Origin: Candidatus Gottesmanbacteria bacterium
GTDB taxonomy: Bacteria > Patescibacteriota > Microgenomatia > JAMCYU01
Assembly: GCA_043801155.1 (NCBI GenBank)
Contig: JAZDMI010000020.1
Coordinates: 1-62,028 of the forward strand
Reading direction: 5' to 3'
DNA length: 62,028 nucleotides
Shown: positions 1,198 through 61,925 of the stretch, one piece after another
Position numbering within the stretch: the first letter of the stretch is position 1
Layout of the letters: each line of letters starts with the position of its first letter
Made by a program: the position numbers and the translations under genes
The notes under the pieces: model-generated
The model's database searches: none
Told to the model about the DNA's origin: nothing
Seen by the model: the letters and a program-made list of their open reading frames with translations, nothing else

Positions 1198-1204
1198 ACG
1201 AATA

Positions 1205-1729
1205 TTATGGGCAAACTGAAACTGCTCCACCGTCAATTATTTCTCCTGATCTTGTTACTTGAATTTTATAGTATTGAGTTCCAGTATTCCCATATCGTAA
1301 ACAAAATGTTCTTGGAGTCCTTACTCCTTGACCAAATATTTTAAACGCTACACGATTAAGATTAAAAGAATCACCGGCAAAATCTCCCGGATTATTAACT
1401 CGTACTGGGGATTTTAGGGATAGTCCACCTACTACCACCGGAAAAGTACCGCCTCCACCATTATCACATTGAGCACGAATTGAGTAGGTAGTTACATTTG
1501 AAAAATATACTTCATATCCGACTAATTTTTGACAGTTTAAAGAGGGTTTTTCAACAGCCATTGCTTTTTCCTGTGCCTGACGAATATGAGTTATTAAATT
1601 TAAGGCAGAGCTTTTTAGAATTTGCCGTTTATTAAAATCAGTGTACTTCGCATAACCGAAACTACTTAAAATAGAGACAATAACTATGGCTATTATCAAT
1701 TCAATAAAAGTAAAACCATTATTTTTCAT
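1205..1729 (-). CDS. prepilin-type minor pilin/pseudopilin (GspH/FimT-like)
   Basis: MKNNGFTFIELIIAIVIVSILSS prepilin motif. Confidence 0.7.
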   Translation of the reverse strand: MKNNGFTFIELIIAIVIVSILSSFGYAKYTDFNKRQILKSSALNLITHIRQAQEKAMAVEKPSLNCQKLVGYEVYFSNVTTYSIRAQCDNGGGGTFPVVVGGLSLKSPVRVNNPGDFAGDSFNLNRVAFKIFGQGVRTPRTFCLRYGNTGTQYYKIQVTRSGEIIDGGAVSVCP

Positions 1730-2230
1730 TTAAGGATTCGCAAGTTGATAGGCTTTACCTGAACTACACGCTGCCCCGATAAACCCTGATGATACAATGT
1801 CTAACCCAGTATCACCAGCAAACTCTATACACGCTTGCACTTTATAGGTTTTGTTAGTACTGTCATAATAATATCGGTAATTAGCAGCAGTATCGGTAGT
1901 ATTTGACGGTAGAACCATATACGTATTTGAGCTACAAGACCATGTATTACCCCAAGAACATGTTGCTGCAGAAGAACAAGTGGTACACCCAATAATTTCA
2001 TAACCGTCTGTGCTCGATGGGTAAGTATTATTATCGGCTCGATACATCTCTAAGGCGTTTTTTACCTGTTGCAGATTAGCTTTTCTTTTGGCATCGCGCG
2101 ATCTTTGTAAATATGCTGGTCCAAAACTAGCTAGCCCGATGGCTGAGACTACACCAATAATTACAATAACCATTAAAAGTTCAATTAATGTAAAACCTTT
2201 ATTTAATTTGCATTTATATATTTTCCACAT
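1730..2230 (-). CDS. type IV pilin-like protein
   Basis: MWKIYKCKLNKGFTLIELLMVIVIIGVVSAIG. The body is Cys-rich, typical of pilin disulfide loops. Confidence 0.75.
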   Translation of the reverse strand: MWKIYKCKLNKGFTLIELLMVIVIIGVVSAIGLASFGPAYLQRSRDAKRKANLQQVKNALEMYRADNNTYPSSTDGYEIIGCTTCSSAATCSWGNTWSCSSNTYMVLPSNTTDTAANYRYYYDSTNKTYKVQACIEFAGDTGLDIVSSGFIGAACSSGKAYQLANP

Positions 2231-2316
2231 AAAAATTTTCCTCCAATTCCAGTATGGCATTTACAAAGAATCATGTCAATCCTTGAGCTAAAAACGGAAT
2301 TTCTTTAAAAGATAGA

Positions 2317-2760
2317 TTAAGGAGTACAACTTGATAAAGATAGTTCAATCATTTTACCAGTGGCTGATCGCCAGCACCAAACATTCCCAGATCCAGATAT
2401 GCTGGGATCTTTTAGGGTCCCATAGATCGAAGCTTCACAGGCTCCAGCAACACAGACATTGCTCCGACTATATATATATGATCCACCTTCAGGTGGTATT
2501 GGATACGTTCTTAGGTCTCCCGATGTAACTAATGTGGTTTCTGGACTTGTAGGGAAAAGAGAATTTAGAACAAAATAGTTCTGTAAACCGGTGGCAATTT
2601 GACTGATATCGCTTTTAACTTTTGAATCTCTCGCCTGATTTATTCTTTTAATGGGATTAATTAAAACTATAATTGCTACAGCAAAAATACCAATCATAGC
2701 GATAACAAAAACTAATTCTATTATTGTAAAACCTAAAACACGAGCAGGATTTTTGACCAT
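2317..2760 (-). CDS. type IV pilin-like protein
   Basis: MVKNPARVLGFTIIELVFVIAMIGIF prepilin motif. Confidence 0.7.
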   Translation of the reverse strand: MVKNPARVLGFTIIELVFVIAMIGIFAVAIIVLINPIKRINQARDSKVKSDISQIATGLQNYFVLNSLFPTSPETTLVTSGDLRTYPIPPEGGSYIYSRSNVCVAGACEASIYGTLKDPSISGSGNVWCWRSATGKMIELSLSSCTP

Positions 2761-3491
2761 ATTAATTCCCCCCAAAATAATGCAATTATTGTTGATCCAA
2801 CTAGGAATGGACCAAAGGGAATATGACTTTTTAATTTTTTTCTGCCTACTAAAATTAGTATTACACCAAATAAAGCGCCTGTCAAGAAGGCTAGATATAA
2901 AGCAATTATAATCTTGGGAAATCCCAGGAATAATCCCATTAAGAGCGTTAATTTAATATCTCCGAAACCCATTCCCCGACCACGTGTTATTAAAAAAAGT
3001 AGTAGGAAAAGACCAGCGGCCAGTATACCTGACACCATGTAATTTAGTATTAAGTATTTAGTATTAAGTACTATGTATAAAACCGAAATAATTATCGCTG
3101 GATAAATAATTTGGTCGGGGATAATTTCATGTTCTAAGTCAATAAAGAAGATAACAATAAGGGCGTAGATAATGAGTAAGTAATAAGTAGTTAGCAGATA
3201 GTCTAAATTACTGAATACTGAATAGTGGATAATGAATAGTGTTAATATCGCAGTTATTAACTCCACCAGCGGATAACGCCAACTAATGGGGGAATGGCAA
3301 TGACGACATCGCCCGCGGAGAAAAAGAAAAGAGAGAAGAGGAATATTATTATACCAGAAAATCTTCTGTTTACACTTTGGACAAAATGATCGGCCAGTAA
3401 TTGACAATCCCAGAGGAAGACGATAAATTAAAACATTAAAAAATGACCCAAAACACAAACCAATAATAAAAAGAAAAATATAAATCATCAT
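2733..3491 (-). CDS. pilD: prepilin peptidase (A24 family)
   Basis: Zn-finger-like CPKC..CRHC in the first cytoplasmic loop, polytopic TM profile, and a GFGDIKL aspartyl motif. Confidence 0.85.
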   Translation of the reverse strand: MMIYIFLFIIGLCFGSFFNVLIYRLPLGLSITGRSFCPKCKQKIFWYNNIPLLSFLFLRGRCRHCHSPISWRYPLVELITAILTLFIIHYSVFSNLDYLLTTYYLLIIYALIVIFFIDLEHEIIPDQIIYPAIIISVLYIVLNTKYLILNYMVSGILAAGLFLLLFLITRGRGMGFGDIKLTLLMGLFLGFPKIIIALYLAFLTGALFGVILILVGRKKLKSHIPFGPFLVGSTIIALFWGELIWSKILLVF

Positions 3492-10016: not shown

Positions 10017-10436
10017 TTATGGACAGTTACCAGTAGCATTTACGGATCCAGCTTTACCGGTGCTTGAACACCACATCCACACACTATATCCTGCGGAAGT
10101 ATATCTTTTTGATTTTAAACTACCCCAGGTTTTTTGACTTAACGGAGTTCCTGAACCAGCAGATAGGCTATAGGCTCCTCCTCCGGGTGGTACAAATGTC
10201 ATTTTCAAATCACCATTGGTGACCAACTGCTCTTGAGATGTAGCATAAGTTCCCGTTTGAACGGTAGCATAAGCTTCCATTGCTTGAGCAATTTGACCAA
10301 TATCACTTTGAACTTTAGCATCATTAGCTGCATTAATCTTATCAATTGGGTCAAGGGCTACAAATATACCGGCGGCTAAAACAGCCAAAACGGCAATAAC
10401 TACTAGTAATTCAATTAATGTAAAACCTTTTTTCAT
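10017..10436 (-). CDS. type IV major pilin candidate
   Basis: MKKGFTLIELLVVIAVLAVLAAGIF, a strong SD (GGAGGGAGGTG), its own terminator, and a C-terminal Cys pair. Confidence 0.8.
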   Translation of the reverse strand: MKKGFTLIELLVVIAVLAVLAAGIFVALDPIDKINAANDAKVQSDIGQIAQAMEAYATVQTGTYATSQEQLVTNGDLKMTFVPPGGGAYSLSAGSGTPLSQKTWGSLKSKRYTSAGYSVWMWCSSTGKAGSVNATGNCP

Positions 10437-15412: not shown

Positions 15413-17353
<1,941 letters not shown>

Positions 17354-19434: not shown

Positions 19435-22005
19435 ATGGATATCGGTAAAATACAACCAACGGAAATAACCACTGAGATGCAGTCGTCATACCTTGACTAT
19501 GCCATGTCGGTTATTGTGTCACGGGCTTTACCTGACGTTAAAGACGGTCTAAAACCAGTCCACCGCCGAATTCTTTATGCCATGCATCAACTGGGTTTAA
19601 CCCATCAAGCTCATTTTTCTAAATCAGCCAAAGTGGTTGGTGAGGTCTTAGGAAAATATCATCCTCATGGAGATATGTCTGTTTATGATGCCTTGGTCAG
19701 ATTAGCCCAAGATTTTAGTATGCGTTATCCCTTAGTTGAAGGCCAAGGTAATTTTGGTTCAGTTGATGGTGATCCACCGGCGGCGATGAGGTATACCGAG
19801 GTTAGATTGGCAAAAATCAGCCAGGAGATGCTGATTGATATTGATAAAAAAACTGTTGATTTTATCCCAAATTTTGACGCGACATTAGATGAACCGGTCT
19901 TTTTACCGGCTAAATTGCCCAATTTACTGCTGATGGGTTGTGAGGGCATTGCGGTTGGTATGGCGACCAAGATTCCAACTCACAATTTAGGCGAAGTTAT
20001 TGATGCTTTAGTTTTCATGATCGATAAAGCCAAGATAGACAGTGGTACACAGATAGCTGAAAGCCAAAATAAAAACAGAACAAAAGATAACCCTGTCACC
20101 GCTAACAGCTCACTACCGACAGCTGTCTCATTTGATATTACCATCGAAGATTTAGTGGAGTTTATTAAGGGTCCAGATTTCCCAACCGCCGGTACTATTT
20201 ATAATATTACGGAAATTATTGCCGCTTATGCTACTGGAAGAGGCCGAATAGTTATCCGTGGAAAAGCAGAAATTGAGGATGTCGGTCAAGGTAAATCAGC
20301 AATTATTATAAATGAATTGCCATATCAAGTTAATAAGGCATTATTAGTGGCCCATATTGCCGATTTAGTTAAAGACAAGAAACTAGAAGGAATTTCCGAC
20401 CTTCGAGATGAATCTGATCAGCGAGGTATTCGAGTTTATATCGAGCTTAAACGAGACGCCCGACCTCAATCAGTGTTAAATAACTTATATAAGCATACTG
20501 AATTGCAAACGGTTTTTCCGGTTAATATGGTAGCTCTGGTTGATGGAACGCCGCAAACATTGACTTTAAAGATGATCCTCGAAGAATATTTAAAACATCG
20601 CCAGAATGTGGTCAGAAAAAGATCAGAGTTTGAGTTAGCCCAAGCCAAAGCCCGCGCCCATATTCTTGAAGGTTTAAAAATCGCTGTCGACCATATTGAT
20701 GAAGTTATCCAAACGATTAAAAGAGCCAAAGATGCGGATGAGGCTAAGATTAATTTGATGACAAAGTTTAAATTGACTGAAATTCAGGCAACAGCAATTT
20801 TAGATATGCAGCTTCGCCGTCTGGCAGCCCTTGAACGACAAAAGATTGAAGATGAATATCAAATGGTCAAAGAAACAATTATCTATCTTGAGGATTTGCT
20901 AGCTCATCCGGAAAAAATTCTCAAAGTTATCAAAGATGAGTTGAATTATATTAAAGAAAAATATGCTGATCCAAGAAAAACTCGCGTGGTTAAAAGCAAG
21001 GTCGGCGAATTTAGTGACGAACAGTTAATCCAAAAAGAGACAACTATTATTACGATTACGACCAGTGGCTATATTAAGAGACTCTCACCTCTCTCATTTA
21101 AAACACAAGGCAGGGGTGGTAAGGGTGTTATAGGCATGACAACAAAAGAAGAAGATAATATTGATCACTTTTTGTTTACAAATACTCATGAAAATATCCT
21201 ATTTTTCACCAATAAAGGTAAAGTTTATCAGTTAAAGGTGTGGGATATCCCTGAAGGAACAAGAATCAGTAAAGGTCAGGCAATTGTGAATTTAATCAAT
21301 GTCGAACAAGGAGAAAAAGTTTCCTCTGTTTTAACTTACAACGAAAAATCTAATGTAAATAAATTTATCTTCTTAACCACAAAAGGCGGAACCGTCAAAA
21401 AGACAGATATTAATGACTTCACTAATATCAGACGTAATGGACTCACGGCCATTAAATTAATTTCCGGCGATGAACTCTGTTGGGCTAAATTAACTGATGG
21501 TAACTCCGACGTTATTTTAATTACCAATGACGGAAAAGGCATCAAGTTTAATGAAAAGCAAGTCCGACCAATGGGCCGGGACACCATGGGAGTGAGAGGA
21601 ATCCTGATTAAGAAACCTGCCCGCCAGCCTAGTGCAGGCTTGGCAGGCGGGAATGATCGAGTTATTGGTATGGATGTTATAGGTGATCCAAAGGCAAATC
21701 TTTTAGTAATTATGGATAAAGGAATTGGGAAACGAAGTCCTTTATCTGATTTCCCTAAACAGGGCAGGGGAGGAATGGGAGTAAAAGCATGTGAGGTAAC
21801 TGCGCGTACCGGAAAGGTTGTCTCGGCACAAATTATTCCAGAAGAAACAGATACCTGTATTTTGACTTCGTGTAAAGGTCAAGTAGTCAAGGTGAATATT
21901 AATCAAATTCCCAAACTATCGCGAGCAACACAAGGGGTTATTCTGATGAGATTTGCCGACCCCAAAGACTCATTAGCGGCGGCTACTTGCATGACAAAAG
22001 AATAA
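19435..22005 (+). CDS. gyrA: DNA gyrase subunit A
   Basis: [12 protein letters not shown], a QRDR-like HPHGD, the active-site region AAMRYTE, and C-terminal beta-pinwheel repeats. Confidence 0.97.
21616..21651 (+). repeat. GC-rich palindromic element inserted in frame in gyrA
   Basis: CCTGCCCGCCAGCCTAGTGCAGGCTTGGCAGGCGGG pairs CCCGCC/GGCGGG and AGCCT/AGGCT. It encodes [12 protein letters not shown]. The same termini occur at 49254-49294 and 53612-53653. Confidence 0.8.
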
Positions 22006-22041: not shown

Positions 22042-22067
22042 TATATGATATATTAATATATCATATA
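22042..22067. promoter_or_regulatory. perfect 26-bp palindrome (operator candidate) over the promoter and start codon of the TrpR-like gene
   Basis: TATATGATATATTAATATATCATATA equals its own reverse complement. It overlaps a putative -10 TAATAT (22054-22059), and its last base (22067) is the A of the ATG at 22067-22069. TTGACA lies at 22030-22035. Confidence 0.55.
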
Positions 22068-22456
22068 TGACCCACGTATCGAAGAAAAAATTGTCCGAAC
22101 AGACTTTCGAAGAAATAAAGAATACCTTTCTTCTTGTCCTTACCGAAATTAATAATAAACAGGCAATGAGTGAATTTTTAGATGTCTTTTTATCTACGAC
22201 CGAAAAAGAGATGCTGGCCAAAAGATTAGCGATAATTTATCTATTAGACAATGGTATTCCTGAAACAAATATTGCTCAATTACTTCATGTAACCCAATCT
22301 ACAGTCTCGTTAATGAAATTAAAATATGAAAACAATCAGCCGGGTTTTCAATGGGCAATTAGCCAAATAAAAAAACAAAAGTTATTACAGAATATCGAGA
22401 TATTAGCATTGCGCTTCGCCAAATACGCCGTCCGTGCTTCCGGTGGAAGAATATGA
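22067..22456 (+). CDS. TrpR-related YerC/YecD-family DNA-binding protein
   Basis: LSTTEKEMLAKRLAIIYLL..GIPETNIAQLLHVTQSTVS looks like a helix-turn-helix of the Trp repressor family. Confidence 0.6.
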   Translation: MTHVSKKKLSEQTFEEIKNTFLLVLTEINNKQAMSEFLDVFLSTTEKEMLAKRLAIIYLLDNGIPETNIAQLLHVTQSTVSLMKLKYENNQPGFQWAISQIKKQKLLQNIEILALRFAKYAVRASGGRI

Positions 22457-22464
22457 TATAGTTA

Positions 22465-22490
22465 TATATGATATATCGATATATCATATA
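22465..22490. promoter_or_regulatory. second perfect 26-bp palindrome, 8 nt after the TrpR-like stop
   Basis: TATATGATATATCGATATATCATATA has the same 11-nt arms as 22042-22067; only the central 4 nt differ (TCGA vs TTAA). An extra half-site ATATGATATA lies at 22451-22460. Confidence 0.55.
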
Positions 22491-34499: not shown

Positions 34500-34620
34500 A
34501 GGGAAATATTACATCATTCTTGTTCTTTTGTCACCTTGATACTTCGATTATTTCAGTATCAAGCCTGATTATTTCGCAGGCTTGACATTATCTGTTAAAC
34601 TGTTCAGTATTAATTTATAC

Positions 34621-34703
34621 CGCCCCTCAAGATGTCGAGCTTACAGCGAGACCGAATTGAGGAAAGGTAAAAGGAGCATTCGCCGAAGGCGAAGCGGACT
34701 TAT
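34621..34703 (+). repeat. structured intergenic element, copy A
   Basis: CCTCAA-GAT-GTCGAGCT-TAC-AGCGAGAC-CGAA-TTGAGG, then an A-rich linker, a TTCGCC-GAA-GGCGAA hairpin, and GGACTTAT. Confidence 0.75.
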
Positions 34704-35150: not shown

Positions 35151-35161
35151 ATCTTTTATTT

Positions 35162-35282
35162 CGCGCCTCAGAATGTCAACTTTACAAGTTGACCTGAATG
35201 AGGCAAGAAAAAAGGAGCACCTGCAGGAGCGAACTTATTCGAACATCGTGAGAAAAAGGAGCACCTGCAGGAGCGGACTTAT
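35162..35282 (+). repeat. structured intergenic element, copy B (tail module duplicated)
   Basis: CCTCA-GAAT-GTCAACTT-TAC-AAGTTGAC-CTGAA-TGAGG, then two copies of AAAAAGGAGCACCTGCAGGAGCG(A/G)ACTTAT with a 44-nt period. The end overlaps the efp stop codon. Confidence 0.8.
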
Positions 35283-35842
35283 TTATTGATCCTCTGAACA
35301 TATTCTCCGGTACGAGTATCGATTAACACCATATCGCCAATTTCAACAAACAAAGGAACTCTAACTTTAACTTTATTATCCAAAACTGCATCCTTGAATA
35401 TATTAGTTGCCGAATTACCACGATAACCAGGTTCAGTTTCTGCAATTGTAAATTCCATTTTAATCGGTAATTCAATTGTTAATGGTTCATCTTGATAAAA
35501 AACTACTTTAATATTCATTCCTTCTTTAAGATACGAGGCTTGATCTCCTATTTTATCGTTAGATAATTCAAACTGCTCAAAGGTATTTGGATCCATAAAA
35601 ACGAAGTTATTACCGTTTTTATAGAGATATTGTGATTCTTTCTTATCTAAATTTGCTTCCTGAACTTTGGCTCCTGATATAAAAACTTTTTCAACAATTG
35701 AACCACTGCGAAGGTTTTTGATTTTTGTTTTTATTGTCGCTGTGCCGCGGCCGAGCTTAACAAACTCATAATTTAAAACCTGGAAGAGATTATTATCTTC
35801 AGTAAAATAAGCTCCGGCTCGTAAATTTGTAACTGAAATCAT
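35279..35842 (-). CDS. efp: elongation factor P
   Basis: 187 aa with an EF-P-like N-terminus and a KLGRGTATIKTK loop. Confidence 0.93.
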   Translation of the reverse strand: MISVTNLRAGAYFTEDNNLFQVLNYEFVKLGRGTATIKTKIKNLRSGSIVEKVFISGAKVQEANLDKKESQYLYKNGNNFVFMDPNTFEQFELSNDKIGDQASYLKEGMNIKVVFYQDEPLTIELPIKMEFTIAETEPGYRGNSATNIFKDAVLDNKVKVRVPLFVEIGDMVLIDTRTGEYVQRINK

Positions 35843-37465: not shown

Positions 37466-38248
37466 TTAGAGAGACTCTTGAAGAAGAGGTTTTTCCCACA
37501 ATATCATTTCTCCTTTTCTCAAAAATGATGTTTTAGGATATCTTCCCTCATTAACACTTTTTTGATATTCCTGCTCAGTCATTCTCTTCATTTTGGAACC
37601 CTTAATTACAACGGTTGTAATCCAATCGATTAATGTCGGGTTTTCAATACCTCTTTCTCTTAATAGTTTTTCTTTTACTCTACTGGGGGTATTATCTAGT
37701 GGAACAATTCCTTTCTCTATTGCTTCGACCGTTCCAGAATCTAAAACAATAAGACATCCGCCCTTGGTTTTGGCAATGGTTGCATTGATCATCCTTTCTG
37801 TATCTTGAGTATCCGGAGAAATAAGTTGCGCATAAATGGCTAATCTGTCTTCTATTTTATTACTAAAGACTCCGAAAAGGTCCTTTATTCTACTATCTCC
37901 CCATCCATCACCTTTAAGTAAAATTATTGTCGGTTTAATTTTAGATACAAGTTGAGTTTTGATTTGGGTAATTTTTTCAAAATCAAAATTAGGATCAATA
38001 CCTATAACAATATCAGCCTCTGTTTTTTGCGATGCAAACAAAAGGCTGTCCAATTGATTCCCTGGTCCTATTTCTATGGCAACTTTATGGTTCTTAAGTA
38101 TTTCCTTTAGTTGGGAAACTGATTGAGTAGAAGGTTCTTTATCCGTAAAGTTGAGTGTATAGAACGGTAATCCGCATGAGTTTTCTTTATTTAATCCAAG
38201 TAATTCTAGTTGATCTGGTTGTATTTGTTCTGATGATTGGATATCCAT
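37466..38248 (-). CDS. hypothetical protein, possibly Rossmann/methyltransferase-like
   Basis: VAIEIGPGN resembles SAM-binding motif I. Otherwise unrecognised. Confidence 0.3.
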   Translation of the reverse strand: MDIQSSEQIQPDQLELLGLNKENSCGLPFYTLNFTDKEPSTQSVSQLKEILKNHKVAIEIGPGNQLDSLLFASQKTEADIVIGIDPNFDFEKITQIKTQLVSKIKPTIILLKGDGWGDSRIKDLFGVFSNKIEDRLAIYAQLISPDTQDTERMINATIAKTKGGCLIVLDSGTVEAIEKGIVPLDNTPSRVKEKLLRERGIENPTLIDWITTVVIKGSKMKRMTEQEYQKSVNEGRYPKTSFLRKGEMILWEKPLLQESL

Positions 38249-39159: not shown

Positions 39160-40524
39160 TTATTCTTTTTCCCGTTTCTTTTCGACGCCGAAGAATTTTA
39201 TGCGGTCGCCTTTAAAAAGCATGTCAATTTCACCTAATGGTCCATTTCGATGTTTGGCGATTAATAATTTAGTGAGGATACTATCGCCCCATTTTTCTGG
39301 CTCCTCCTGTCGATAAAGAAACATAACCACATCTGCGTCTTGTTCAATGGCACCAGACTCACGAAGATCAGCCAATTGTGGAATCTTACTACCGCGTGAC
39401 TCAACCGCCCGTGACAATTGTGAAACGGATAGAACAGGGATTTTAAGTTCACGAGCCAAATTTTTAAGAGAGGCTGAAACCATTGAGACTTCTTGTACCC
39501 GGTTATCGTATCGACGACCGCAATCAACTAATTGTAGATAGTCAACAATTAATAACTGGACTCCGTGTTGGACTTGTAAACGGCGAGCTTTAGTCCTAAT
39601 TTCCAAAATATTGGCTCCGGGGGTATCATCAATATATAATGGCGCTTCGGCCAATTCACCCATAGCCGTTGACAACTTAGTAAAATCTTCGTCAGCTAAT
39701 TTCCCTGTTTTAAGGCGCCACGCATCAACGTCAGCCTGCGATACTAACAATCTGTCCACCAGCTCTTCCTTGCTCATTTCTAAAGAAAAAATCCCGACCG
39801 GGATTTTTTGTTGAACTGATGCATTTTGAGCCATGTTTAAAACTAAAGCCGTTTTTCCTTGACCGGGCCGGGCAGCTAAAATTAATAGATTTGAAGGCTG
39901 CATACCAGCTAATCGATTATCTAGATCAATAAAGCCGGTCGGTACTCCCCGCAGCCCTCCGGCGCGCTTATGTAACTCATCAAGCCGGTCAAAGGATTCA
40001 GCTAAAGCGTCTTTTATAGGGATAAAGTCTCGCCGAGCATGGATTTGCGCAATGGAAAAGATTTCTGACTCGGCCACATCTAAGATTCCTTTAACGTCTC
40101 CCTTGCCGGAAGTGGCTTCTGCGGAGATTTTGGCTGCTGTAGAAATAAGCGTTCGACGAGTAAAATTATCTTGGATAATCCGGCCATAATTTTCGGCATT
40201 AGCACTGGTTGGAACAGCATTAAGAATATCAGTTAAATATGAAGCACCGCCGATTTTTTCGAAGTCGCCGCTTTTTTTGAGTTCAGCTGTAATAGTAACA
40301 ATATCAATTGGTTCATGTTTTTCAAAAAGATAAATCATCGCCTGAAATATTTTGCCATTACTTTCCTTATAAAAATGATTCGGGCGGAGGAATTCAACAA
40401 TATCAACAATAGCATCCTTATCAATAAGGATTGCCCCTAAAACAGAAAGCTCGGCCTGGTCATCATGTGGAGGAACTTTGAGATCTGTCATATTTGATGA
40501 AAAGGAATACTTGGACTCACTCAA
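39160..40524 (-). CDS. dnaB: replicative DNA helicase
   Basis: PHDDQAELSVLGAIL, Walker A ARPGQGKTA, and 454 aa length. No intein. Confidence 0.95.
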   Translation of the reverse strand: MSESKYSFSSNMTDLKVPPHDDQAELSVLGAILIDKDAIVDIVEFLRPNHFYKESNGKIFQAMIYLFEKHEPIDIVTITAELKKSGDFEKIGGASYLTDILNAVPTSANAENYGRIIQDNFTRRTLISTAAKISAEATSGKGDVKGILDVAESEIFSIAQIHARRDFIPIKDALAESFDRLDELHKRAGGLRGVPTGFIDLDNRLAGMQPSNLLILAARPGQGKTALVLNMAQNASVQQKIPVGIFSLEMSKEELVDRLLVSQADVDAWRLKTGKLADEDFTKLSTAMGELAEAPLYIDDTPGANILEIRTKARRLQVQHGVQLLIVDYLQLVDCGRRYDNRVQEVSMVSASLKNLARELKIPVLSVSQLSRAVESRGSKIPQLADLRESGAIEQDADVVMFLYRQEEPEKWGDSILTKLLIAKHRNGPLGEIDMLFKGDRIKFFGVEKKREKE

Positions 40525-42520: not shown

Positions 42521-42593
42521 GATATAACATTCTTCGAATGTTTTTCCTTGCCTCAATTCACCTTTGATGTAATCAAAGGATCTTGAGGGGCAG
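42521..42593 (-). repeat. structured intergenic element, copy D (opposite orientation)
   Basis: CCTCAA (42551-42556)/TTGAGG (42583-42588), inner stem CCTTTGAT-GTA-ATCAAAGG, and a CATTC-TTC-GAATG hairpin followed by TTTTT. Confidence 0.75.
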
Positions 42594-42608
42594 AATAAAA
42601 ATTATCAT

Positions 42609-49168: not shown

Positions 49169-49218
49169 AACAGAGAATATTTTTTCAAATAAACCTGAGA
49201 TAATACTTAGAATTATTC

Positions 49219-49328
49219 CGCGCCTCAGAACGTCAATTTCACAAATTGACCTGCCTGCCCGCCGGCGGCATTGCCGCAGGCAAATGCAGGCGGGAATGAG
49301 GCAAGGAAAAAGGAAAACTTGGACTTAT
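49219..49328 (+). repeat. structured intergenic element, copy C, carrying a nested GC-rich palindrome
   Basis: CCTCA-GAAC-GTCAATTT-CAC-AAATTGAC-CTG, then a 41-nt insert at 49254-49294, then AATGAGG and a tail ending GGACTTAT. The end overlaps the ctpA stop codon. Confidence 0.8.
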
Positions 49329-52107: not shown

Positions 52108-53163
52108 TTAAACTATCAAACAAGCTCTTTTTATTCTTTGTTCTCTAAACATTTTACTTTCCTCGCTTGATATACCAAGAATTCCTTCTAAATCATCGCT
52201 GTTTTTAGATTTATCATCCAATATGACAGTACCGCTCATACGCCAAACAAGTTGGAATAAACGATAAGTGTCGTGCTGTAAAAAGGTATTTATTCTGTCC
52301 TTATTTATTCTTATAACTAGTATCGGCGGTTTGGTTGGAGGATTTTTAACCAACTCACTATATGCCCAATAAGATCTAATATCGTCGGCAAAAATGATAT
52401 TTTCTTTTCCAAAATCACCTATTTTTTTCCTGGTTTCTTCTTTAGTCGTCTTGGATAAAAATAAAAGGCCTTCATGGGGTAATGGAGCAACAATTCTAGT
52501 TTGAACAATATAAAATTCCGTTGTTACTGAAGTCCTTACATCATATCTGCCAACAAATTCCATTTGATAAGCATAACTTTGTCCTTGTTTATTAAAAAGC
52601 TCTTTTGCTTGCTGGTGCATGTTAAAAGCTTTTAAAAGACATTCTCTGTCAACACCTTCGTACGAACTATAATCATTAGTAACCTCGAAATCTAAACCAA
52701 AAGAGGCATACCCTCTTCTGGGTAAGTGTATACCTTGGGCTAAAACCATTTCTTGTCCGTTATCCATGGTAATAACCCTAAAATTGGCATGTCTTATCAT
52801 TCTTTGAAGAAAAAAGTCAGCTTTCAATTTGTTTGGATGAATACCACTGGCTTTACAATAATTCCCTATCTCGTCATTGGTATACGGATGGAATGGGTTT
52901 TCTCTTCTCGTTTTTAAAAATTTTTCCCAGCCTTTTTTCGAATAGATATCGTCTGTCGACAGAACATTAATTAAATAATTATCATTTATACCTATGACCC
53001 TTCCTCGTGCTACGACAGCTTCACCTCTATTGATATGTCCTTCCGCTATTTCCCAATCGGTAAAAATTTCAGGAACAGGAAAACCGTGACTGGCCAAAAA
53101 CTGTTGGCCTGTAAGTTTATCCAACTCTCCAAAAGGGGTTTGTAATACTTCGTGGCTGTTCAT
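52108..53163 (-). CDS. hypothetical protein (weak ATP-grasp-like N-terminus)
   Basis: LTGQQFLASHGFPVPE resembles ATP-grasp N-terminal segments. Otherwise unrecognised. Confidence 0.35.
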   Translation of the reverse strand: MNSHEVLQTPFGELDKLTGQQFLASHGFPVPEIFTDWEIAEGHINRGEAVVARGRVIGINDNYLINVLSTDDIYSKKGWEKFLKTRRENPFHPYTNDEIGNYCKASGIHPNKLKADFFLQRMIRHANFRVITMDNGQEMVLAQGIHLPRRGYASFGLDFEVTNDYSSYEGVDRECLLKAFNMHQQAKELFNKQGQSYAYQMEFVGRYDVRTSVTTEFYIVQTRIVAPLPHEGLLFLSKTTKEETRKKIGDFGKENIIFADDIRSYWAYSELVKNPPTKPPILVIRINKDRINTFLQHDTYRLFQLVWRMSGTVILDDKSKNSDDLEGILGISSEESKMFREQRIKRACLIV

Positions 53164-53216: not shown

Positions 53217-54359
53217 TTAAACATTAAACTTAAATTCCACTACATCCCCATCTTGCATTATATAATCTCTACCCTCTTGCCTAACTTTGCCGGCCTCGGT
53301 ACACTTCTTTTCTCCGCCAAAATTTATATAGTCATCGTAGGAAATTACATCCGCCATGATAAATCCTTTGGTAAAATCGGTATGAATAACTCCAGCAGCC
53401 TGGGGAGCTGACATTCCTTTTTTAATCGTCCAAGCCCTAACTTCCTTTTCGCCGGCAGTTAAAAAAGTCATTAAACCTAGTGTCGAAAATGCTTTTTGAA
53501 TTAGTCTTTCCAGGCCGCTTTTTTCAACTCCCAATTCTTTAAGATAGGATTTCTGTTCCTCCAAAGATAACTCGGCTAATTCAGCTTCTGTCTTGGCCGA
53601 AATCGTAACCACCTGCCCGCCAGTCGCTTGCGCTCTGGGCGCATGCAGGCGGGTCTGATTCTCTAATCCTAATTCTATTGAATACTTTTTTTCAATTTCT
53701 TCGCCTTTTTTTAAATCATTTTCATCTACATTTAAAACGACCAAAATAGCTTTATCTGTTAATAGGCTTAATTGTTTACTGGCTGTTTTTTCTTCATCAG
53801 ACAGGGTAATATCTCTAGCCGTTATCCCTTTGGCTAAACCCTCTCTTAACTTAATTACCGCTTGCCAACGAAATTGATCACTCTTAGTGATAGTTCCCCG
53901 TGGTTCACTTTGTTTTTCCAGAGTTTGTAAATCCGCTAACATAAGTTCAGTTTCCACTGTTTTGAAATCACTTTTCGGCTCAACACTTCCATGTCTGACT
54001 ATGTTGGAGTCAGTAAAGTCGCGGACAACATGAGCAATGGCGTCAGTTTCTCTTATATGTGATAAAAATTTGTTGCCTAAACCCTCGCCTTTTGATGCAC
54101 CGGCAATCAGCCCAGCAATATCCAGAAATTGAACCGTGGCCGGAACCTCGGGAGGAAGATGATCCAATCCTTCGGCCTTCTTTATTACTTCTGCTAACTT
54201 TGCCAGTCGTTCATCAGGAACTGGCACGATACCAATATTGGGTTCTATCGTGGCAAAGGGAAAATTAGCCACATACGCCTGCTGTTTTTTAAGAAGAGCG
54301 TTAAATAATGTAGACTTACCTACGTTTGGAAGACCAACAATTCCTACAGACAAAGACAT
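53217..54359 (-). CDS. ychF: ribosome-binding ATPase YchF
   Basis: GIVGLPNVGKSTLFNAL, and a TGS-like C-terminus. Confidence 0.93.
   Translation of the reverse strand: MSLSVGIVGLPNVGKSTLFNALLKKQQAYVANFPFATIEPNIGIVPVPDERLAKLAEVIKKAEGLDHLPPEVPATVQFLDIAGLIAGASKGEGLGNKFLSHIRETDAIAHVVRDFTDSNIVRHGSVEPKSDFKTVETELMLADLQTLEKQSEPRGTITKSDQFRWQAVIKLREGLAKGITARDITLSDEEKTASKQLSLLTDKAILVVLNVDENDLKKGEEIEKKYSIELGLENQTRLHAPRAQATGGQVVTISAKTEAELAELSLEEQKSYLKELGVEKSGLERLIQKAFSTLGLMTFLTAGEKEVRAWTIKKGMSAPQAAGVIHTDFTKGFIMADVISYDDYINFGGEKKCTEAGKVRQEGRDYIMQDGDVVEFKFNV
53612..53653 (+). repeat. GC-rich palindromic element inserted in frame in ychF
   Basis: CCTGCCCGCCAG...ATGCAGGCGGG is 42 nt. Read on the minus strand it encodes TRLHAPRAQATGGQ. 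Confidence 0.8.
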
Positions 54360-54426: not shown

Positions 54427-55818
54427 CTAGAACTCTCTTGGTTGAACTGGAATAGCAGCTAAACGGTTAATTATAGCTTGCCCTTTATATTCCTGAACTT
54501 TTCCCGTCCATTTATCGGGCCTTTCCAGATAGCTATTTAACATATAGGCTGAACGATGATGACAATTTGCTTCCGTTGGTTTGAACTCCCATACATTAGT
54601 AAACTCAAATAGACTTATTGCTTCTTCAGTTTCTTCAACCATAGCTAAAAAACATTTTTTTGTGACTTCTGCCTGATAATCATCTTCCCAAAGATTACTA
54701 GAAGTCTGTGGTTCTAATAACTTACCCCATAATCTATTAAATTGCTCGTCTGATAATTTCATCAATCGCATCTCATCCTTTTTTCTAAAAGCTCTGTAAT
54801 CAGCAAAATCTCTGAAACACAGATAATATAACGTTGGATCCATACGGTCTAATAGTTCGTAATCCTGGGAATTTTTGGCTTTTTTGATATAAGGAACGAA
54901 TTTAGGTTTTTCTACTAACCCTACATGGGAAATTTCATCTAGGGTAAAGTGTGTTTCTCTTGGAACAATTAAAGGAGCTTCTAAGGTTATGGCTAAAGTA
55001 GGAATTCCATAGGCTGCACCTTGGTAAGGATGTGCAGAAGTAAAATATACATCTTGACGGCTTGCTCCCGTTGCAGCTCGTTCTCCCGAACCATGAGTTC
55101 CAGTTGTAAAACCATAAGGCAAAGGAATTCCCCAAGTCGTACTTAATTCTCTTCCTTGGGCAATATGAACTTTTTGTAATTGGGTAAAATAATAACGGTT
55201 ATAATCATGACCAAATGTATCTTCAAAGGCTCTAGTATTTTTTTCTGCTTTAGGGTCAATTACTATTTCTACTCCTTTTGCTAAATGGGGGAAAAGATAA
55301 ATAGCCCTGTTTAAAAGGTCATTAAGTTTTTCTTCTATTTCCTGTATCCCTTTATCTGTTTTATCCCTTGTTTTGAGCTCGGAAAATAACTCTCCGATGC
55401 GTTCATTGATTCCGTGAAGACCTTTTCTTTCAACAATGTCTATATATTGTAAATCAAGAATTAAGTCTCTTAACCTATCTGTAGCCCCAAAACCTACTTG
55501 TTCAGCTTTAAATGGTTCTAATTTTTCATGAAGTTGAGCTGCACTAACTGTTTTTCCCCCGTCATAAACTAATTTTTGTCCTGACCAATCGCCCACAGTA
55601 TCAAGAACTTCTGCAAGTCTAAGTCTAGTCTGAATAACTGATTGAGAAGTTGAGGGATATTTATCTGAATCATCAACAGCCTCTTTACGAATTTCACTAA
55701 CTCTCGCATTTACTGAAAGAGTTAAAGGTGAAACCTCAGAAATAGGTAATGGTTCAAAATCTTTTGGTCTTATCATATAATATTGCCGATTATAGGCTAA
55801 ATTATTGATATAAGTCAA
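54427..55818 (-). CDS. hypothetical protein (463 aa from the TTG; alternative ATG at 55776)
   Basis: Long open frame with no recognised motif. Confidence 0.4.
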   Translation of the reverse strand: MTYINNLAYNRQYYMIRPKDFEPLPISEVSPLTLSVNARVSEIRKEAVDDSDKYPSTSQSVIQTRLRLAEVLDTVGDWSGQKLVYDGGKTVSAAQLHEKLEPFKAEQVGFGATDRLRDLILDLQYIDIVERKGLHGINERIGELFSELKTRDKTDKGIQEIEEKLNDLLNRAIYLFPHLAKGVEIVIDPKAEKNTRAFEDTFGHDYNRYYFTQLQKVHIAQGRELSTTWGIPLPYGFTTGTHGSGERAATGASRQDVYFTSAHPYQGAAYGIPTLAITLEAPLIVPRETHFTLDEISHVGLVEKPKFVPYIKKAKNSQDYELLDRMDPTLYYLCFRDFADYRAFRKKDEMRLMKLSDEQFNRLWGKLLEPQTSSNLWEDDYQAEVTKKCFLAMVEETEEAISLFEFTNVWEFKPTEANCHHRSAYMLNSYLERPDKWTGKVQEYKGQAIINRLAAIPVQPREF

Positions 55819-56034: not shown

Positions 56035-56814
56035 ATGTTAGATAAAGACCAGCAAAACACCCACTTGTCCAATGAAACTCTTATTTATTCACTTCTTAAA
56101 CGGTTGCAAGACCCTGTTTATTTACCAGCCTTAGCAGAAGTAAACGAACTTTTGGAATTGAATAAGGCAGTAAAAGTAAGTATGGGAAAATTTGAACAGG
56201 AACATTCTATATATGAATTTTGGACAAGGGAATATATAGAAACACTTAGTGGATATCTTAAAGAACGAATAATCTCCTTGCGTTTAAGAGATAAAAAAAT
56301 CATAACGATTCTGGATACAGGAGCAGGAGACGGACGGTTGTGTTATTTCTTAAGAATGAGTAAGAATTTATCCCCCTTATTGGACATCTGTAGAATTATA
56401 GCGAGTGATAACGGATCTTGGAAAATCACTCCACAATTCCACGTAGAAAAATTAGATTATAAAGAAGCTCTAGAAAAATGTAAGCCGGATATAGTCTTAT
56501 GTTCATTTATGCCTCGTGGAGAGGACTGGACGGCAGCATTTCGAGAACAGCCAAGCGTAAAAGAGTACATCATAATTGGCGATACCGATTGTACTGGAAA
56601 TGATGATACTTATGGGTATGGGGAAGGTTGTTCGGCAAACTATGATAATGGAAGTTTTGAGATTACTAACCTAAATTATACACCCCCACACGAAAGAGAT
56701 GGCTTTACTCGAACTAATCTGTTTTTTAGTAGACTAAATCATTGTGTATATGATAACGATTTTATCCCCGATCGCTCAAGGACACTTTCTTTCAGAAGAA
56801 CAGAATCAGCATAA
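56035..56814 (+). CDS. hypothetical protein, class I methyltransferase-like
   Basis: ILDTGAGDGRL resembles SAM motif I. Confidence 0.4.
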   Translation: MLDKDQQNTHLSNETLIYSLLKRLQDPVYLPALAEVNELLELNKAVKVSMGKFEQEHSIYEFWTREYIETLSGYLKERIISLRLRDKKIITILDTGAGDGRLCYFLRMSKNLSPLLDICRIIASDNGSWKITPQFHVEKLDYKEALEKCKPDIVLCSFMPRGEDWTAAFREQPSVKEYIIIGDTDCTGNDDTYGYGEGCSANYDNGSFEITNLNYTPPHERDGFTRTNLFFSRLNHCVYDNDFIPDRSRTLSFRRTESA

Positions 56815-58110: not shown

Positions 58111-58839
58111 CTAATCTGTTACCGGAACTCTTACAAACATATCTCCAGAATCCTTAGAGGACAGATATAAAGTCATACCAAATTCTATACATACCTGTTT
58201 ATTAAAATCTACGAGTCTTTCTCTGAAACTCCCTCTTTTCTTGCGCATAAATTCATCACGTAAGCTATCTAAACGTTTCGTTAGTTTTTCCTCACTCATA
58301 TTGTTCGGTGTTGCCGCCGTCTTCAAGGCTAACAAGGCCGTTTCACCATATATTAAGAGAAAAAATTGCATATTTTGATTTACAAGTAAATTAAAATAAT
58401 CTTTTCCTGAAAAACTTAATTGACCAGTTTTTGTCTCCGCTTTCGCATCTTTTGGTACATTATGAGAATGTAACAAACCAATATTTTTTTGAAACTGATC
58501 TCTTCCTGGTTGATATTTAACTTCTAATGTTACACTATGACCAGTACCTTCCACTGATTTTGTTACAAATAAAGTAGAACTTCGAGGGTCAGTATCCGCG
58601 ATAACTAACATACCCCATTCATGATGAGTTCTGTCAGTATTATCTCTTAATTCATTTCTATAAGTTCTAAACGGACCTAAATTAATAAAGTCAGGACGAT
58701 TATAAGCAGGAAGATAACTATCAGTGGCAGCAAGTACAATCTCTATATTTTTAAAACGTTGAAAATCCCAATATTTAGGAGCTGTTAATTGTTCTATATA
58801 ATTACTTAAAGAGGAACTTTCATTTTTGTCAGTATACAT
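58111..58839 (-). CDS. hypothetical protein with a possible JAB/MPN-like motif pattern
   Basis: HHEWGMLV ... LHSHNVP ... SFSGKDY loosely fits E..HxH..SxxD, but the spacing is atypical. Confidence 0.3.
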   Translation of the reverse strand: MYTDKNESSSLSNYIEQLTAPKYWDFQRFKNIEIVLAATDSYLPAYNRPDFINLGPFRTYRNELRDNTDRTHHEWGMLVIADTDPRSSTLFVTKSVEGTGHSVTLEVKYQPGRDQFQKNIGLLHSHNVPKDAKAETKTGQLSFSGKDYFNLLVNQNMQFFLLIYGETALLALKTAATPNNMSEEKLTKRLDSLRDEFMRKKRGSFRERLVDFNKQVCIEFGMTLYLSSKDSGDMFVRVPVTD

Positions 58840-60737: not shown

Positions 60738-61925
60738 TTAATCTGATTTTACAGCAAGCAGTGTTTTTCTTTTTGCTTCTTTTAATATTTCAGCGGTATT
60801 TTGATTAAGTATCTTAAAATTCAATTCTAGTCCCCTATGGACAAGAACATTTTCTAAAAATTTTATCCCTGCCCAATCCAAGCTTTTTCTCCAATTATCA
60901 CTATATACTTCATCTGGATGAGAGAAAATATGAAAAATTCGTTTCTTTTGAGATAATCCTTTTATATACTGTAAAGCATAATTTCGTATGCTTGATGGAC
61001 AATATTCTTCTTGAGCAAAAATTTCATAACATCTTTTTATATCTAGATCCCACCGATTTTGCGCTGGATTTCCGTCTTTTCTTGGAAAACAATTAATTAT
61101 TCCATCTTTTTCCCCTTTAAAATTCGTGATGGTATTATCAAATTCTTGGCGCATCATCTCGGCCAGAAATGTTTTTATCATGTTAATTCTAACCTGTTCC
61201 TGTAATTTAAGACGCGGACCTTTGTATGCGTAAAGAAAACCAGCTGCCCGAGCGACAAGCCTATCTCCCCCATCTATAGAAAAAGTATTTTGACCCCTTA
61301 ACCAAAGCGCTAATGAGAATCGCGTTGCTAGGGTTGTAATACCGTCCAATGATTCTTCCGGGCTTGATGTCATCAGGAACCTGTAAACTGATCTAAGCTG
61401 GTAGGATGTATAAGGAATTCCTAAATCATCGAGTAAATATTTTACTGTCCCCCATTTTAAAAAATAATCAATTAAATAACTTACATGGGGTACTTTTTTT
61501 AAGGCCCGGGTAAGGACATTACTTTGTCTGATAGTCAAAGCTTTGACTAGTTTTTCTTCAATTCTCTTTAAATCTGTAATTCTTTTATTAATGTCTATAC
61601 TTATTTTGGATTGGTCGTATTGTTCCTGTAAACAAATTGCCGAAGCAATTGTGTCTCGGACAGTCCTTTCAACAGTATGAAAATTTAATCCATGATTATA
61701 TGCAACTGTAGCAGTATTTTTATCACTGACCTCTAATGCAAGTTCCAGACGTTTTTGAGGAGTTAGACTTGTTGGGCCAGGACCAGACGCTAATAGAGAA
61801 AGACCTCTGGTAATTTTCTCTCTTCCTTCATCCGTATTAAAAATACTATCCTTCTCAACAAAATGTCTTAGTACCTCTCGAGCTTTTAATATACCTATCT
61901 GTTCCCCTGTTTCTTTGTTTGCCAT
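60738..61925 (-). CDS. hypothetical protein (395 aa)
   Basis: Long open frame with no recognised motif. Confidence 0.4.
   Translation of the reverse strand: MANKETGEQIGILKAREVLRHFVEKDSIFNTDEGREKITRGLSLLASGPGPTSLTPQKRLELALEVSDKNTATVAYNHGLNFHTVERTVRDTIASAICLQEQYDQSKISIDINKRITDLKRIEEKLVKALTIRQSNVLTRALKKVPHVSYLIDYFLKWGTVKYLLDDLGIPYTSYQLRSVYRFLMTSSPEESLDGITTLATRFSLALWLRGQNTFSIDGGDRLVARAAGFLYAYKGPRLKLQEQVRINMIKTFLAEMMRQEFDNTITNFKGEKDGIINCFPRKDGNPAQNRWDLDIKRCYEIFAQEEYCPSSIRNYALQYIKGLSQKKRIFHIFSHPDEVYSDNWRKSLDWAGIKFLENVLVHRGLELNFKILNQNTAEILKEAKRKTLLAVKSD

What the first reader, a model, noticed from the sequence alone, without database searches (positions are those of the whole stretch)
53612..53653. 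Same GC-rich palindromic element in frame inside ychF, on the opposite coding strand
CCTGCCCGCCAGTCGCTTGCGCTCTGGGCGCATGCAGGCGGG is 42 nt, a multiple of three. It lies in the same plus-strand orientation as the gyrA copy, although ychF is on the minus strand. It is translated as TRLHAPRAQATGGQ, at about residues 236-249, just before the conserved VVTISAKTEAELAEL segment. Because the element is palindromic, both reading directions give Pro/Ala/Arg/Gln/Gly-rich, stop-free peptides. That may explain why it is tolerated in two essential genes.
Basis: partly seen in the sequence, partly recalled or inferred. Interest (0 to 1): 0.65.

Follow-up and report, generated by a model that had tools for sequence, protein, structure and literature searches.

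The report
Tiny in-frame GC-rich hairpin repeat
The 42 bases inside ychF are a real copy of a very small GC-rich hairpin repeat, apparently mobile, that occurs in many bacterial phyla and phage-like contigs; it sits in reading frame inside ordinary genes and is most likely translated as a harmless surface loop.

Summary
Bases 53612-53653 are 76% GC in a 36% GC Microgenomates (CPR) contig and lie in frame in an intact ychF. They encode residues 236-249, which all close homologues and all solved YchF structures lack. AlphaFold places them in a disordered loop.

The window has three copies: gyrA, ychF and one intergenic. They share only the arms CCTGCCCGCC...(G/T)GCAGGCGGG.

The same arms turn up in low-GC genomes of many phyla and in viral contigs, about 16 times more often than a mirror-image control hairpin. 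Copies are 27-57 nt, and 66 of 93 distinct sequences are multiples of three, even where no gene spans them. In-gene copies use three of the six frames (28 of 31). One nested copy shows insertion of the exact unit with no target duplication.

Most likely this is a non-autonomous mobile hairpin that persists in genes when it is in frame and falls in a permissive loop. The mobilising enzyme is unknown.

The closest known kinds are intragenic REPs and Rickettsia palindromic elements. It lacks their defining tags and sizes, so I rate it a new variant of a known kind.

The parts
53612..53653 (+). 42-nt hairpin element (here called FAM1), ychF copy. It is antisense to ychF and translated as residues 236-249, TRLHAPRAQATGGQ.
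53612..53621 (+). 5' arm CCTGCCCGCC, identical in all three window copies
53644..53653 (+). 3' arm TGCAGGCGGG (family consensus GGCAGGCGGG). It pairs with the 5' arm with one T.G and one C.A mispair.
53217..54359 (-). ychF, the host gene: intact, 380 aa, against 366-367 aa for most homologues
21616..21651 (+). 36-nt FAM1 copy in gyrA, on the sense strand. It encodes residues 728-739, [12 protein letters not shown], and falls in a gap of the alignment to solved GyrA C-terminal domains.
49254..49294 (+). 41-nt FAM1 copy, intergenic between ctp and htrA. It interrupts one of four copies of a ~60-nt structured repeat; the other three serve as empty sites.
49213..49321 (+). The copy of the ~60-nt structured repeat that carries the 41-nt element. 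Uninterrupted copies are at 34614-34678, 35155-35219 and 42541-42599 (- strand).

Best explanation
The 42 nt are a copy of a family of miniature GC-rich hairpin repeats, 27-57 nt long, with arms CCTGCCCGCC...GGCAGGCGGG and a variable, usually self-pairing interior.

**Shown**
- Copies are dispersed at unrelated sites.
- They are absent from orthologous or paralogous sites.
- They are foreign in composition.
- At least once a copy was inserted as an exact unit, without target duplication or loss.

**Inferred**
- The elements are non-autonomous. An enzyme encoded elsewhere moves them, probably acting on the folded single strand as the HUH/Y1 transposases of IS200/IS605 and REPs do. This step is the least certain.
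- Insertions into genes survive only if they are a multiple of three, stop-free, in a tolerable frame and in a permissive surface loop.
- The family as a whole has become adapted to coding DNA, since even likely non-coding copies are multiples of three.
- In ychF the copy is transcribed and translated into a disordered 13-14-residue loop between the helix after G4 and the strand before G5, with little effect on the protein.
For: **Insertion status**
- The YchF residues are missing in the closest relatives and in PDB homologues.
- The gyrA residues are missing in 119 of 119 homologues and in PDB homologues.
- The intergenic copy is missing from three paralogous repeat copies.

**A family, not chance**
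72 matches lie in loci below 56% GC, from Patescibacteria, Bacteroidota, Ignavibacteria, Desulfobacterota, Planctomycetes, Chloroflexi and others.
- It gave 94 viral stretches, against 22 for a mirror-image control of equal composition and pairing. In low-GC contigs that is 32 matches against 2.

**Exact, duplication-free insertion**
- L153/L210 are the 33-nt element of L222 with a complete 27-nt element inserted at its apex.
- L157 is self-nested.

**Translated and filtered**
- 49 of 72 lengths are multiples of three (p = 2e-9).
- 28 of 31 in-gene copies use the frames PAR..AGG, xLPA..QAG or xRLP..GGQ.
- Stop codons are depleted.
- Hosts are ordinary proteins: RNase J, UvrD, RpoD, trigger factor, a DegT aminotransferase, a P-type ATPase and an S9 peptidase.
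- The YchF insert has pLDDT < 50 between well-folded elements.

**Family-level multiple-of-three length**
- 16 of 24 copies with no spanning ORF of 80 codons are multiples of three (p = 9e-4).
- 34 of 39 FAM1 sites in viral contigs are multiples of three, against 10 of 41 for the perfect-arm hairpin.

**Structure**
- All copies fold (z about -2.4 to -2.9).
- Interiors add stability in 61 of 72 copies.
Against: - No mobilising enzyme was found. No protein family recurs near copies, and the window shows only an XerC/D-like recombinase.
- No conserved target tetranucleotide flanks the copies. IS200/IS605 and RAYT systems normally need one.
- Copies within one genome differ completely in their interior. 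That is unusual for a recently amplifying element.
- Sister arm combinations also exist, so family limits are blurred.
- In some phage contigs the hairpin is part of a conserved hairpin-element-RBS module, which hints at a cis function there.
- No reads, RNA or peptide data could be obtained, so translation is inferred.
- Other palindromes occupy the same ychF site in other lineages. A single old insertion followed by divergence and loss is therefore not excluded.
Confidence: 0.68

Rival explanations
1. Functional cis-element. The hairpin is kept because a host or phage factor uses it at the DNA or RNA level, for example as a protein-binding or uptake signal, an RNA processing or stability site, or a translational pause. 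In-gene copies would then be selected, not merely tolerated.
For: - The arms are invariant, with two conserved mispairs, while interiors vary.
- In related phage contigs the element sits in a conserved module between a hairpin and an RBS+ATG.
- It is enriched over the mirror control.
- The window encodes type IV pilus genes, which would fit DNA uptake.
Against: - Orientation relative to the host gene is roughly even, 20 + against 11 -.
- Sites are scattered over unrelated genes and intergenic DNA.
- Density is only 3 per 62 kb, far below known uptake sequences (own knowledge).
- Decayed copies exist, such as L130.
- Close relatives do without it.
Confidence: 0.15
2. A local, non-mobile loop expansion of YchF. 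It would have arisen by slippage or duplication in a variable loop, and its resemblance to the gyrA stretch would be coincidental.
For: - This loop varies in length among YchF proteins.
- Several lineages carry different extra residues at this site.
Against: - Identical 10-nt and 9-nt arms occur at three unrelated window sites, against 0.02 expected.
- The same arms occur in many phyla.
- The stretch is 76% GC in a 41% GC gene.
- A near-identical interior occurs in another genome, L101.
Confidence: 0.04
3. One ancient insertion at this ychF site that has since diverged in sequence and been lost many times. On this reading the window copy is not a recent event.
For: - In the sense strand all occupants of the site begin CCCGCCT (CCAGCCT in the decayed L130 copy) right after the Gln codon: window, L001/L009, L003 and L130.
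- L130 is a decayed version of the L001 type.
- Palindromes flanked by short repeats are prone to precise deletion (own knowledge).
Against: - Carriers are scattered in the YchF tree, and the window groups with five empty relatives.
- The window copy has intact family-1 arms and an interior close to copies in other genomes.
- The L001 type has different arms.
- Only a few loops tolerate inserts, so repeated occupation of one loop is expected anyway.
Confidence: 0.1
4. The element is not translated. It would be removed from the mRNA or bypassed by the ribosome, as with mitochondrial byp elements or T4 gene 60.
For: - CAG codons flank the 39-nt core in ychF, a formal take-off and landing pair.
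- The RNA would form a strong hairpin.
Against: - The copy is in frame and stop-free.
- The family shows multiple-of-three lengths, frame preference and stop depletion, which only matter if it is translated.
- There is no stop after a take-off codon.
Confidence: 0.02
5. Assembly or sequencing artefact.
For: - The window is a single metagenomic contig.
- No reads could be inspected.
Against: - The copies are in frame in two genes.
- The same family appears in assemblies from many studies, assemblers and platforms, with different interiors.
Confidence: 0.01

Closest known systems
Intragenic REPs (repetitive extragenic palindromes, GTAG- and CGTC-tagged super-families) and REPINs
   Same: - Both are short (20-40 nt), GC-rich, imperfect palindromes in many copies.
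- Some REP copies lie inside known genes, including replication and repair genes, and encode extra residues.
- Different REPs can occupy about the same site of one gene in related species.
- REPs are thought to be non-autonomous and mobilised in trans (PMC3733652, PMC12306157, PMC3116915).
   Different: - There is no GTAG or CGTC tag; the ends are CCTG... and ...CGGG.
- No RAYT gene was seen nearby.
- The same arms occur across many phyla and in phage-like contigs, rather than one family per species.
- Lengths are quantised in threes and frames are biased.
- Interiors are unrelated between copies of one genome.
Rickettsia palindromic elements (RPEs)
   Same: Both are palindromic selfish repeats inserted in frame into unrelated housekeeping genes of a small AT-rich genome. 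The added peptide is judged compatible with the protein fold (PMC10969869, citing Ogata et al. 2000).
   Different: - RPEs are about 100-150 bp, are restricted to Rickettsia, and each family encodes a conserved peptide.
- This element is 27-57 nt, conserves only its arms, and is spread over phyla.
Prokaryotic MITEs
   Same: Both are small, non-autonomous, have terminal inverted repeats and sometimes make in-frame fusions (PMC10969869).
   Different: - MITEs are usually over 100 bp, make target-site duplications, and derive from a recognisable IS.
- Here there is no duplication, the inverted repeats are 10 nt, and no parent IS was found.
Small dispersed repeats of heterocyst-forming cyanobacteria, and GC clusters and byp elements of yeast mitochondria (own knowledge, not checked here)
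   Same: All are very small mobile hairpin-like repeats that nest within one another and enter coding regions of AT-rich genomes without destroying the genes.
   Different: They have different sequences and hosts. Byp elements are skipped by the ribosome, whereas this element appears to be translated.

Membership tests
REP / REPIN (RAYT-mobilised) | Conserved GTAG (or CGTC) tetranucleotide at one end of the palindrome | tested here: not met
   The ends are CCTG... and ...CGGG on one strand, and CCCG... and ...CAGG on the other. Feature as defined in PMC3733652.
REP / REPIN (RAYT-mobilised) | Short, GC-rich imperfect palindrome present in multiple similar copies per genome | tested here: met
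   3 copies per 62 kb in the window, up to 4 per 8 kb in L090; all fold.
REP / REPIN (RAYT-mobilised) | Predominantly extragenic location | tested here: not met
   2 of 3 window copies and at least 37 of 89 surveyed copies lie inside ORFs of 200 codons or more.
REP / REPIN (RAYT-mobilised) | A RAYT (Y1 HUH transposase) gene in the genome, flanked by the repeats | not testable with these tools
   Only 62 kb of this genome and 8-kb pieces of the others were available. No recurrent family was found among neighbouring ORFs.
Rickettsia palindromic elements | About 100-150 bp element with a family-specific conserved encoded peptide | tested here: not met
   Copies are 27-57 nt and only the arm-encoded residues are shared.
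Rickettsia palindromic elements | In-frame insertion into unrelated conserved genes at positions compatible with the fold | tested here: met
MITE | Target-site duplication flanking terminal inverted repeats | tested here: not met
   No duplication at the nested insertion or at the intergenic filled/empty pair. No flank conservation.
MITE | Derivation from an autonomous IS with the same terminal repeats | tested here: inconclusive
   The only two arm pairs 100-6000 nt apart enclose phage portal and terminase genes or nothing relevant. Whole genomes were not searchable.
IS200/IS605-type single-strand transposition (mechanism, not membership) | Insertion without duplication, imperfect subterminal hairpin, and insertion 3' of a fixed tetra- or pentanucleotide | tested here: inconclusive
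   The first two features are met. No fixed upstream motif was found: the best positions reach only 39-43% for one base.
Known RNA families (Rfam 15) | Match to a curated covariance model | tested here: not met
   No hit on the element in the window or in 18 loci.

The most novel reading that the evidence does not exclude
FAM1 would be the smallest class of mobile DNA yet seen in bacteria, down to 27 nt. On this reading it is a hairpin parasite that crosses phylum boundaries, perhaps carried by phages. It would have evolved to live inside coding sequence, with lengths quantised in threes, few stop codons and three preferred frames. It would be moved by a ubiquitous host enzyme or an undescribed one rather than by a dedicated transposase of a known family.
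Probability: 0.25. Interest if true: 0.8.

Novelty: new variant of a known kind. Interest (0 to 1): 0.6.

Why it matters
- **Essential proteins in reduced genomes.** Highly conserved proteins (YchF, GyrA, RNase J, UvrD, RpoD, trigger factor) in reduced CPR genomes and in other phyla are being lengthened by selfish DNA rather than by adaptive loop evolution.
- **Annotation and phylogeny.** These inserts matter for annotation, for alignment-based phylogenies of CPR, and for reading 'lineage-specific insertions'.
- **Element-level adaptation.** Multiple-of-three length as a family trait, even outside genes, is a clean and testable case of a mobile element adapted to compact, gene-dense genomes.
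- **Horizontal spread.** Identical arms in distant phyla and in phage-like contigs point to horizontal spread, or to a shared and still unknown mobilising activity.

Tried and rejected
- **Reads.** I searched for public sequencing runs holding the window, to test polymorphism and RNA. None could be listed, and a relative's locus was not accepted.
- **Rfam.** Searches at gathering and permissive thresholds found nothing on the element.
- **Literature.** A full-text search for the four arm strings returned only unrelated eukaryotic papers. Keyword searches for CPR palindromic insertions found nothing specific.
- **Associated enzyme.** All-against-all clustering of 1072 ORFs from 63 loci, and Pfam on 144 neighbouring ORFs, gave only housekeeping families. 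Pfam on ten window ORFs gave a XerC/D-like recombinase but no transposase.
- **Autonomous long version.** The only two widely spaced arm pairs were spurious.
- **Target motif or duplication.** Neither was found in the flanks.
- **CCTG as a pre-existing target.** The ychF empty sites, which read CAG GTx, suggested this. I rejected it because the gyrA empty site has no CCTG and the nested copy carries its own.
- **Other GC-rich islands in the window.** The islands in gyrB (16574-16612) and dnaB (39930-39972) are ordinary conserved coding sequence, not elements.
- **Are the mispaired arms the dominant form?** This stayed inconclusive.

Full report
**1. The observation**

The quoted 42 nt are at 53612-53653 on the + strand. 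They are 76% GC, against 41% for the host gene and 36% for the window.

The host ORF, 53217-54359 on the - strand, is a full-length YchF. It has motifs G1, G3, G4 (NVDE) and G5 (SAK), and it aligns end to end with H. influenzae, E. coli and T. thermophilus YchF (E about 1e-96). The peptide TRLHAPRAQATGGQ is residues 236-249.

By its best named YchF relatives, the window is a whole 62,028-bp contig of a Microgenomates/Woesebacteria-like CPR bacterium.

**2. It is an insertion**

In an alignment of 120 YchF proteins, the five closest relatives (72-78% identical, 367-374 aa, the extra length lying at another site) and more than 100 others have nothing at this position. Typical length is 366-367 aa against 380 here. 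All solved YchF/OLA1 sequences show a gap there.

An AlphaFold2 model built on 119 homologues has mean pLDDT 83. It drops below 50 exactly at residues 236-247, between helix 213-229 and strand 250-253, which leads into G5.

At codon level the empty relatives read G-L-x-x-x-CAG-GTx. The window reads GGA TTA GAG AAT CAG [39 nt] CAG GTG. The net gain is therefore 13 codons, with a 3-nt junction ambiguity.

**3. It is a repeat**

The window holds three copies, all in + orientation:
- gyrA, 21616-21651 (36 nt, sense strand, [12 protein letters not shown])
- an intergenic copy, 49254-49294 (41 nt)
- ychF (42 nt, antisense strand)

They share CCTGCCCGCC at the 5' end and (G/T)GCAGGCGGG at the 3' end, and nothing else. 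A search tolerating three arm mismatches finds only these loci, and none in 20 shuffled windows. Each copy folds as a hairpin (z -2.4 to -2.9).

The gyrA residues are absent from all 119 best GyrA C-terminal-domain homologues. They fall in a gap against E. coli GyrA structures, within the aligned C-terminal domain. The nearest relative with DNA has GAC GCT TCA there instead.

The intergenic copy interrupts one of four copies of a ~60-nt structured repeat. The three uninterrupted copies act as empty sites and show a clean 41-nt gain with no duplication.

**4. The family is widespread**

High-GC genomes contribute hits that look like chance. But 72 matches lie in loci below 56% GC, where I estimate only one or two by chance (my own calculation from base composition).

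These low-GC matches come from many groups:
- Saccharibacteria
- Nomura-, Doudna-, Shapiro-, Lloyd- and Peribacteria
- Spechtbacterales
- Bacteroidota, Ignavibacteria and Chlorobiaceae
- Desulfobacterota and Gammaproteobacteria
- Planctomycetes, Omnitrophota, Elusimicrobia and Chloroflexi

*Viral contigs and controls.* Viral contigs gave 94 stretches. A mirror-image hairpin with the same composition and pairing gave 22. In low-GC contigs the counts are 32 matches against 2.

*What is and is not conserved.*
- Flanks are not conserved.
- The 3' arm is really GGCAGGCGGG, with G in 52 of 72 copies.
- Interior sub-families recur across phyla. The ychF interior resembles that of L101 and of Desulfobacteraceae copies, and L127 and L041 are identical.
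- About 110 kb from related Microgenomates contain no family-1 copy. These relatives carry other GC-rich in-frame palindromes instead.

**5. Evidence that it moves, and how**

L153 and L210 equal the 33-nt element found intact in L222 at the same conserved module site, plus a complete 27-nt element at its apex:

CCTGCCCGCCGAACA^AATTCTTTGGCAGGCGGG

The boundaries are unambiguous. They run from the first C of CCTG to the last G of CGGG, with no duplication and no loss. L157 is a copy nested in itself.

Exact, duplication-free insertion of an imperfect hairpin into a hairpin apex is what single-strand HUH/Y1 transposition would give. However, I found no fixed upstream target motif and no linked enzyme. 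I therefore hold that mechanism at about one chance in four.

**6. Evidence that in-gene copies are translated and filtered**

- Lengths are multiples of three in 49 of 72 copies (p = 2e-9), and in 66 of 93 distinct sequences.
- Copies open in all six frames number 30 of 72, against 17.8 +/- 3.3 for interior shuffles.
- Among multiple-of-three copies inside ORFs of 200 codons or more, 28 of 31 use three of the six frames: PAR..AGG, xLPA..QAG and xRLP..GGQ (chi-square p = 0.001). The gyrA and ychF copies use the first and third.
- Hosts confirmed by Pfam include RNase J, UvrD, RpoD, trigger factor, a DegT aminotransferase, a P-type ATPase, an S9 peptidase and an HD protein.

**7. Multiple-of-three length is a family trait**

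Of 24 copies that no frame spans with even 80 open codons, 16 are still multiples of three (p = 9e-4).

In viral contigs, 34 of 39 family-1 sites are multiples of three. That includes 21 of 25 in high-GC contigs. Only 10 of 41 sites of the perfectly complementary hairpin CCTGCCCGCC...GGCGGGCAGG are.

The simplest reading is lineage selection. In gene-dense genomes most surviving copies, and hence most donors, are multiples of three, so new copies inherit that length. The window's non-coding copy is 41 nt, so the rule is not absolute.

**8. The ychF site in other lineages**

Four other YchF proteins among the 120 carry inserts at the same position, within about one nucleotide:
- a 33-nt palindrome, CCCGCCTCGCCGAAGACGGCGAGTCGAGGCGGG, in L001 and L009; removing it restores E-D-Q-V-V
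- a decayed copy of that palindrome in L130
- a 21-nt remnant in L003

Carriers are scattered in a neighbour-joining tree, and the window groups with five empty relatives.

Two readings remain open. The loop may simply be one of the few places that tolerate inserts, so independent hits accumulate there. Or one old insertion has diverged and often been lost. Repeated occupation of one site by different REPs has been reported for Xanthomonas recB (PMC3733652).

**9. Comparison with what is known**

In-frame palindromic repeats in housekeeping genes are known. The examples are Rickettsia RPEs (PMC10969869) and intragenic GTAG/CGTC REPs (PMC3733652). REPs are defined as short, palindromic, multi-copy and mostly extragenic (PMC12306157).

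This family works like them but fails their defining features:
- It has no GTAG or CGTC tag.
- It is not mostly extragenic.
- It is far smaller than RPEs.
- It makes no target duplication, unlike MITEs.

It matches no Rfam family. Its arm sequences appear in no relevant paper in the searchable library.

Degenerate-arm scans show sister combinations. Family 1 is therefore probably one branch of a wider set of hairpins with (CCYG)2CC arms.

**10. Verdict**

It is a copy of a tiny, widespread, apparently undescribed hairpin repeat that persists in frame in essential genes. The mobilising enzyme, the timing of the ychF insertion and actual translation remain inferred.

Noticed in passing
window 34614-34678, 35155-35219, 49213-49321 (+), 42541-42599 (-): Four copies of a ~60-nt three-tier hairpin: CCUCA/UGAGG, a variable inner stem and a UUACA loop. 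9 of 17 pairs show compensatory changes, and an A-rich GGAG tail follows. It has no Rfam match, and only one copy lies upstream of a same-strand gene. It could be an unknown structured RNA or a second repeat family.
   Followed up: partly
window ~22043-22066 and ~22464-22487: Two 24-nt perfect palindromes, ATATGATATAT(TA/CG)ATATATCATAT, bracket the 129-aa ORF 22067-22456 just downstream of gyrA. They are candidate operator sites. The ORF's family was not checked; relative L005 encodes a Trp_repressor-family protein (PF01371).
   Followed up: no
L006 10172-10237, L007 10178-10228, L008 10343-10384, L009 1650-1697, L003 11413-11436: Other GC-rich in-frame inserts occur in relatives: at three further YchF positions (after residues 60, 119 and 345) and in rpsF. 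Some have related arms (CCTGCCTCGCC...AGGCGGG) and several are decayed. In-frame hairpin insertion seems common in Microgenomates.
   Followed up: partly
L222, L158, L153, L210 (viral contigs): The element is embedded in a conserved module, CCCCTCTTAANNTTAAGAGGGGCNAGG-[element]-GGAGTTATGAA (hairpin, element, RBS and start codon). The genes around the module differ, and the element interior differs between contigs.
   Followed up: partly
L001 9404-9967; L003 3721-10068: In L001/L002 an HNH endonuclease gene lies directly upstream of ychF. In L003 a serine recombinase plus Prim-Pol island abuts the ychF start.
   Followed up: no
window 52108-53163, 54427-55818, 56035-56814, 58111-58839, 60738-61925, 37466-38248: Six sizeable ORFs, including both neighbours of ychF, match no Pfam family.
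   Followed up: partly
window 242-2775 and 10017-10436: Several tandem pilin-like genes share a conserved N-terminal segment, seen as DNA repeat families D1, D2 and D5. They sit next to ORFs that look like prepilin peptidase, PilC, PilT and PilB, judged from their N-terminal sequences only.
   Followed up: no
window 35209-35239 and 35253-35283: A 31-nt direct repeat, AAAAAGGAGCACCTGCAGGAGCG(A/G)ACTTATT, occurs twice, 44 nt apart, between a small membrane-protein-like ORF and an ORF that looks like EF-P.
   Followed up: no
L005 7284-7303: A perfect palindrome, CCTGCCTGCCGGCAGGCAGG, lies a few bases after the ychF stop codon in the closest relative with DNA. It is built from the same CCTG units as the element arms and is probably a terminator.
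   Followed up: no
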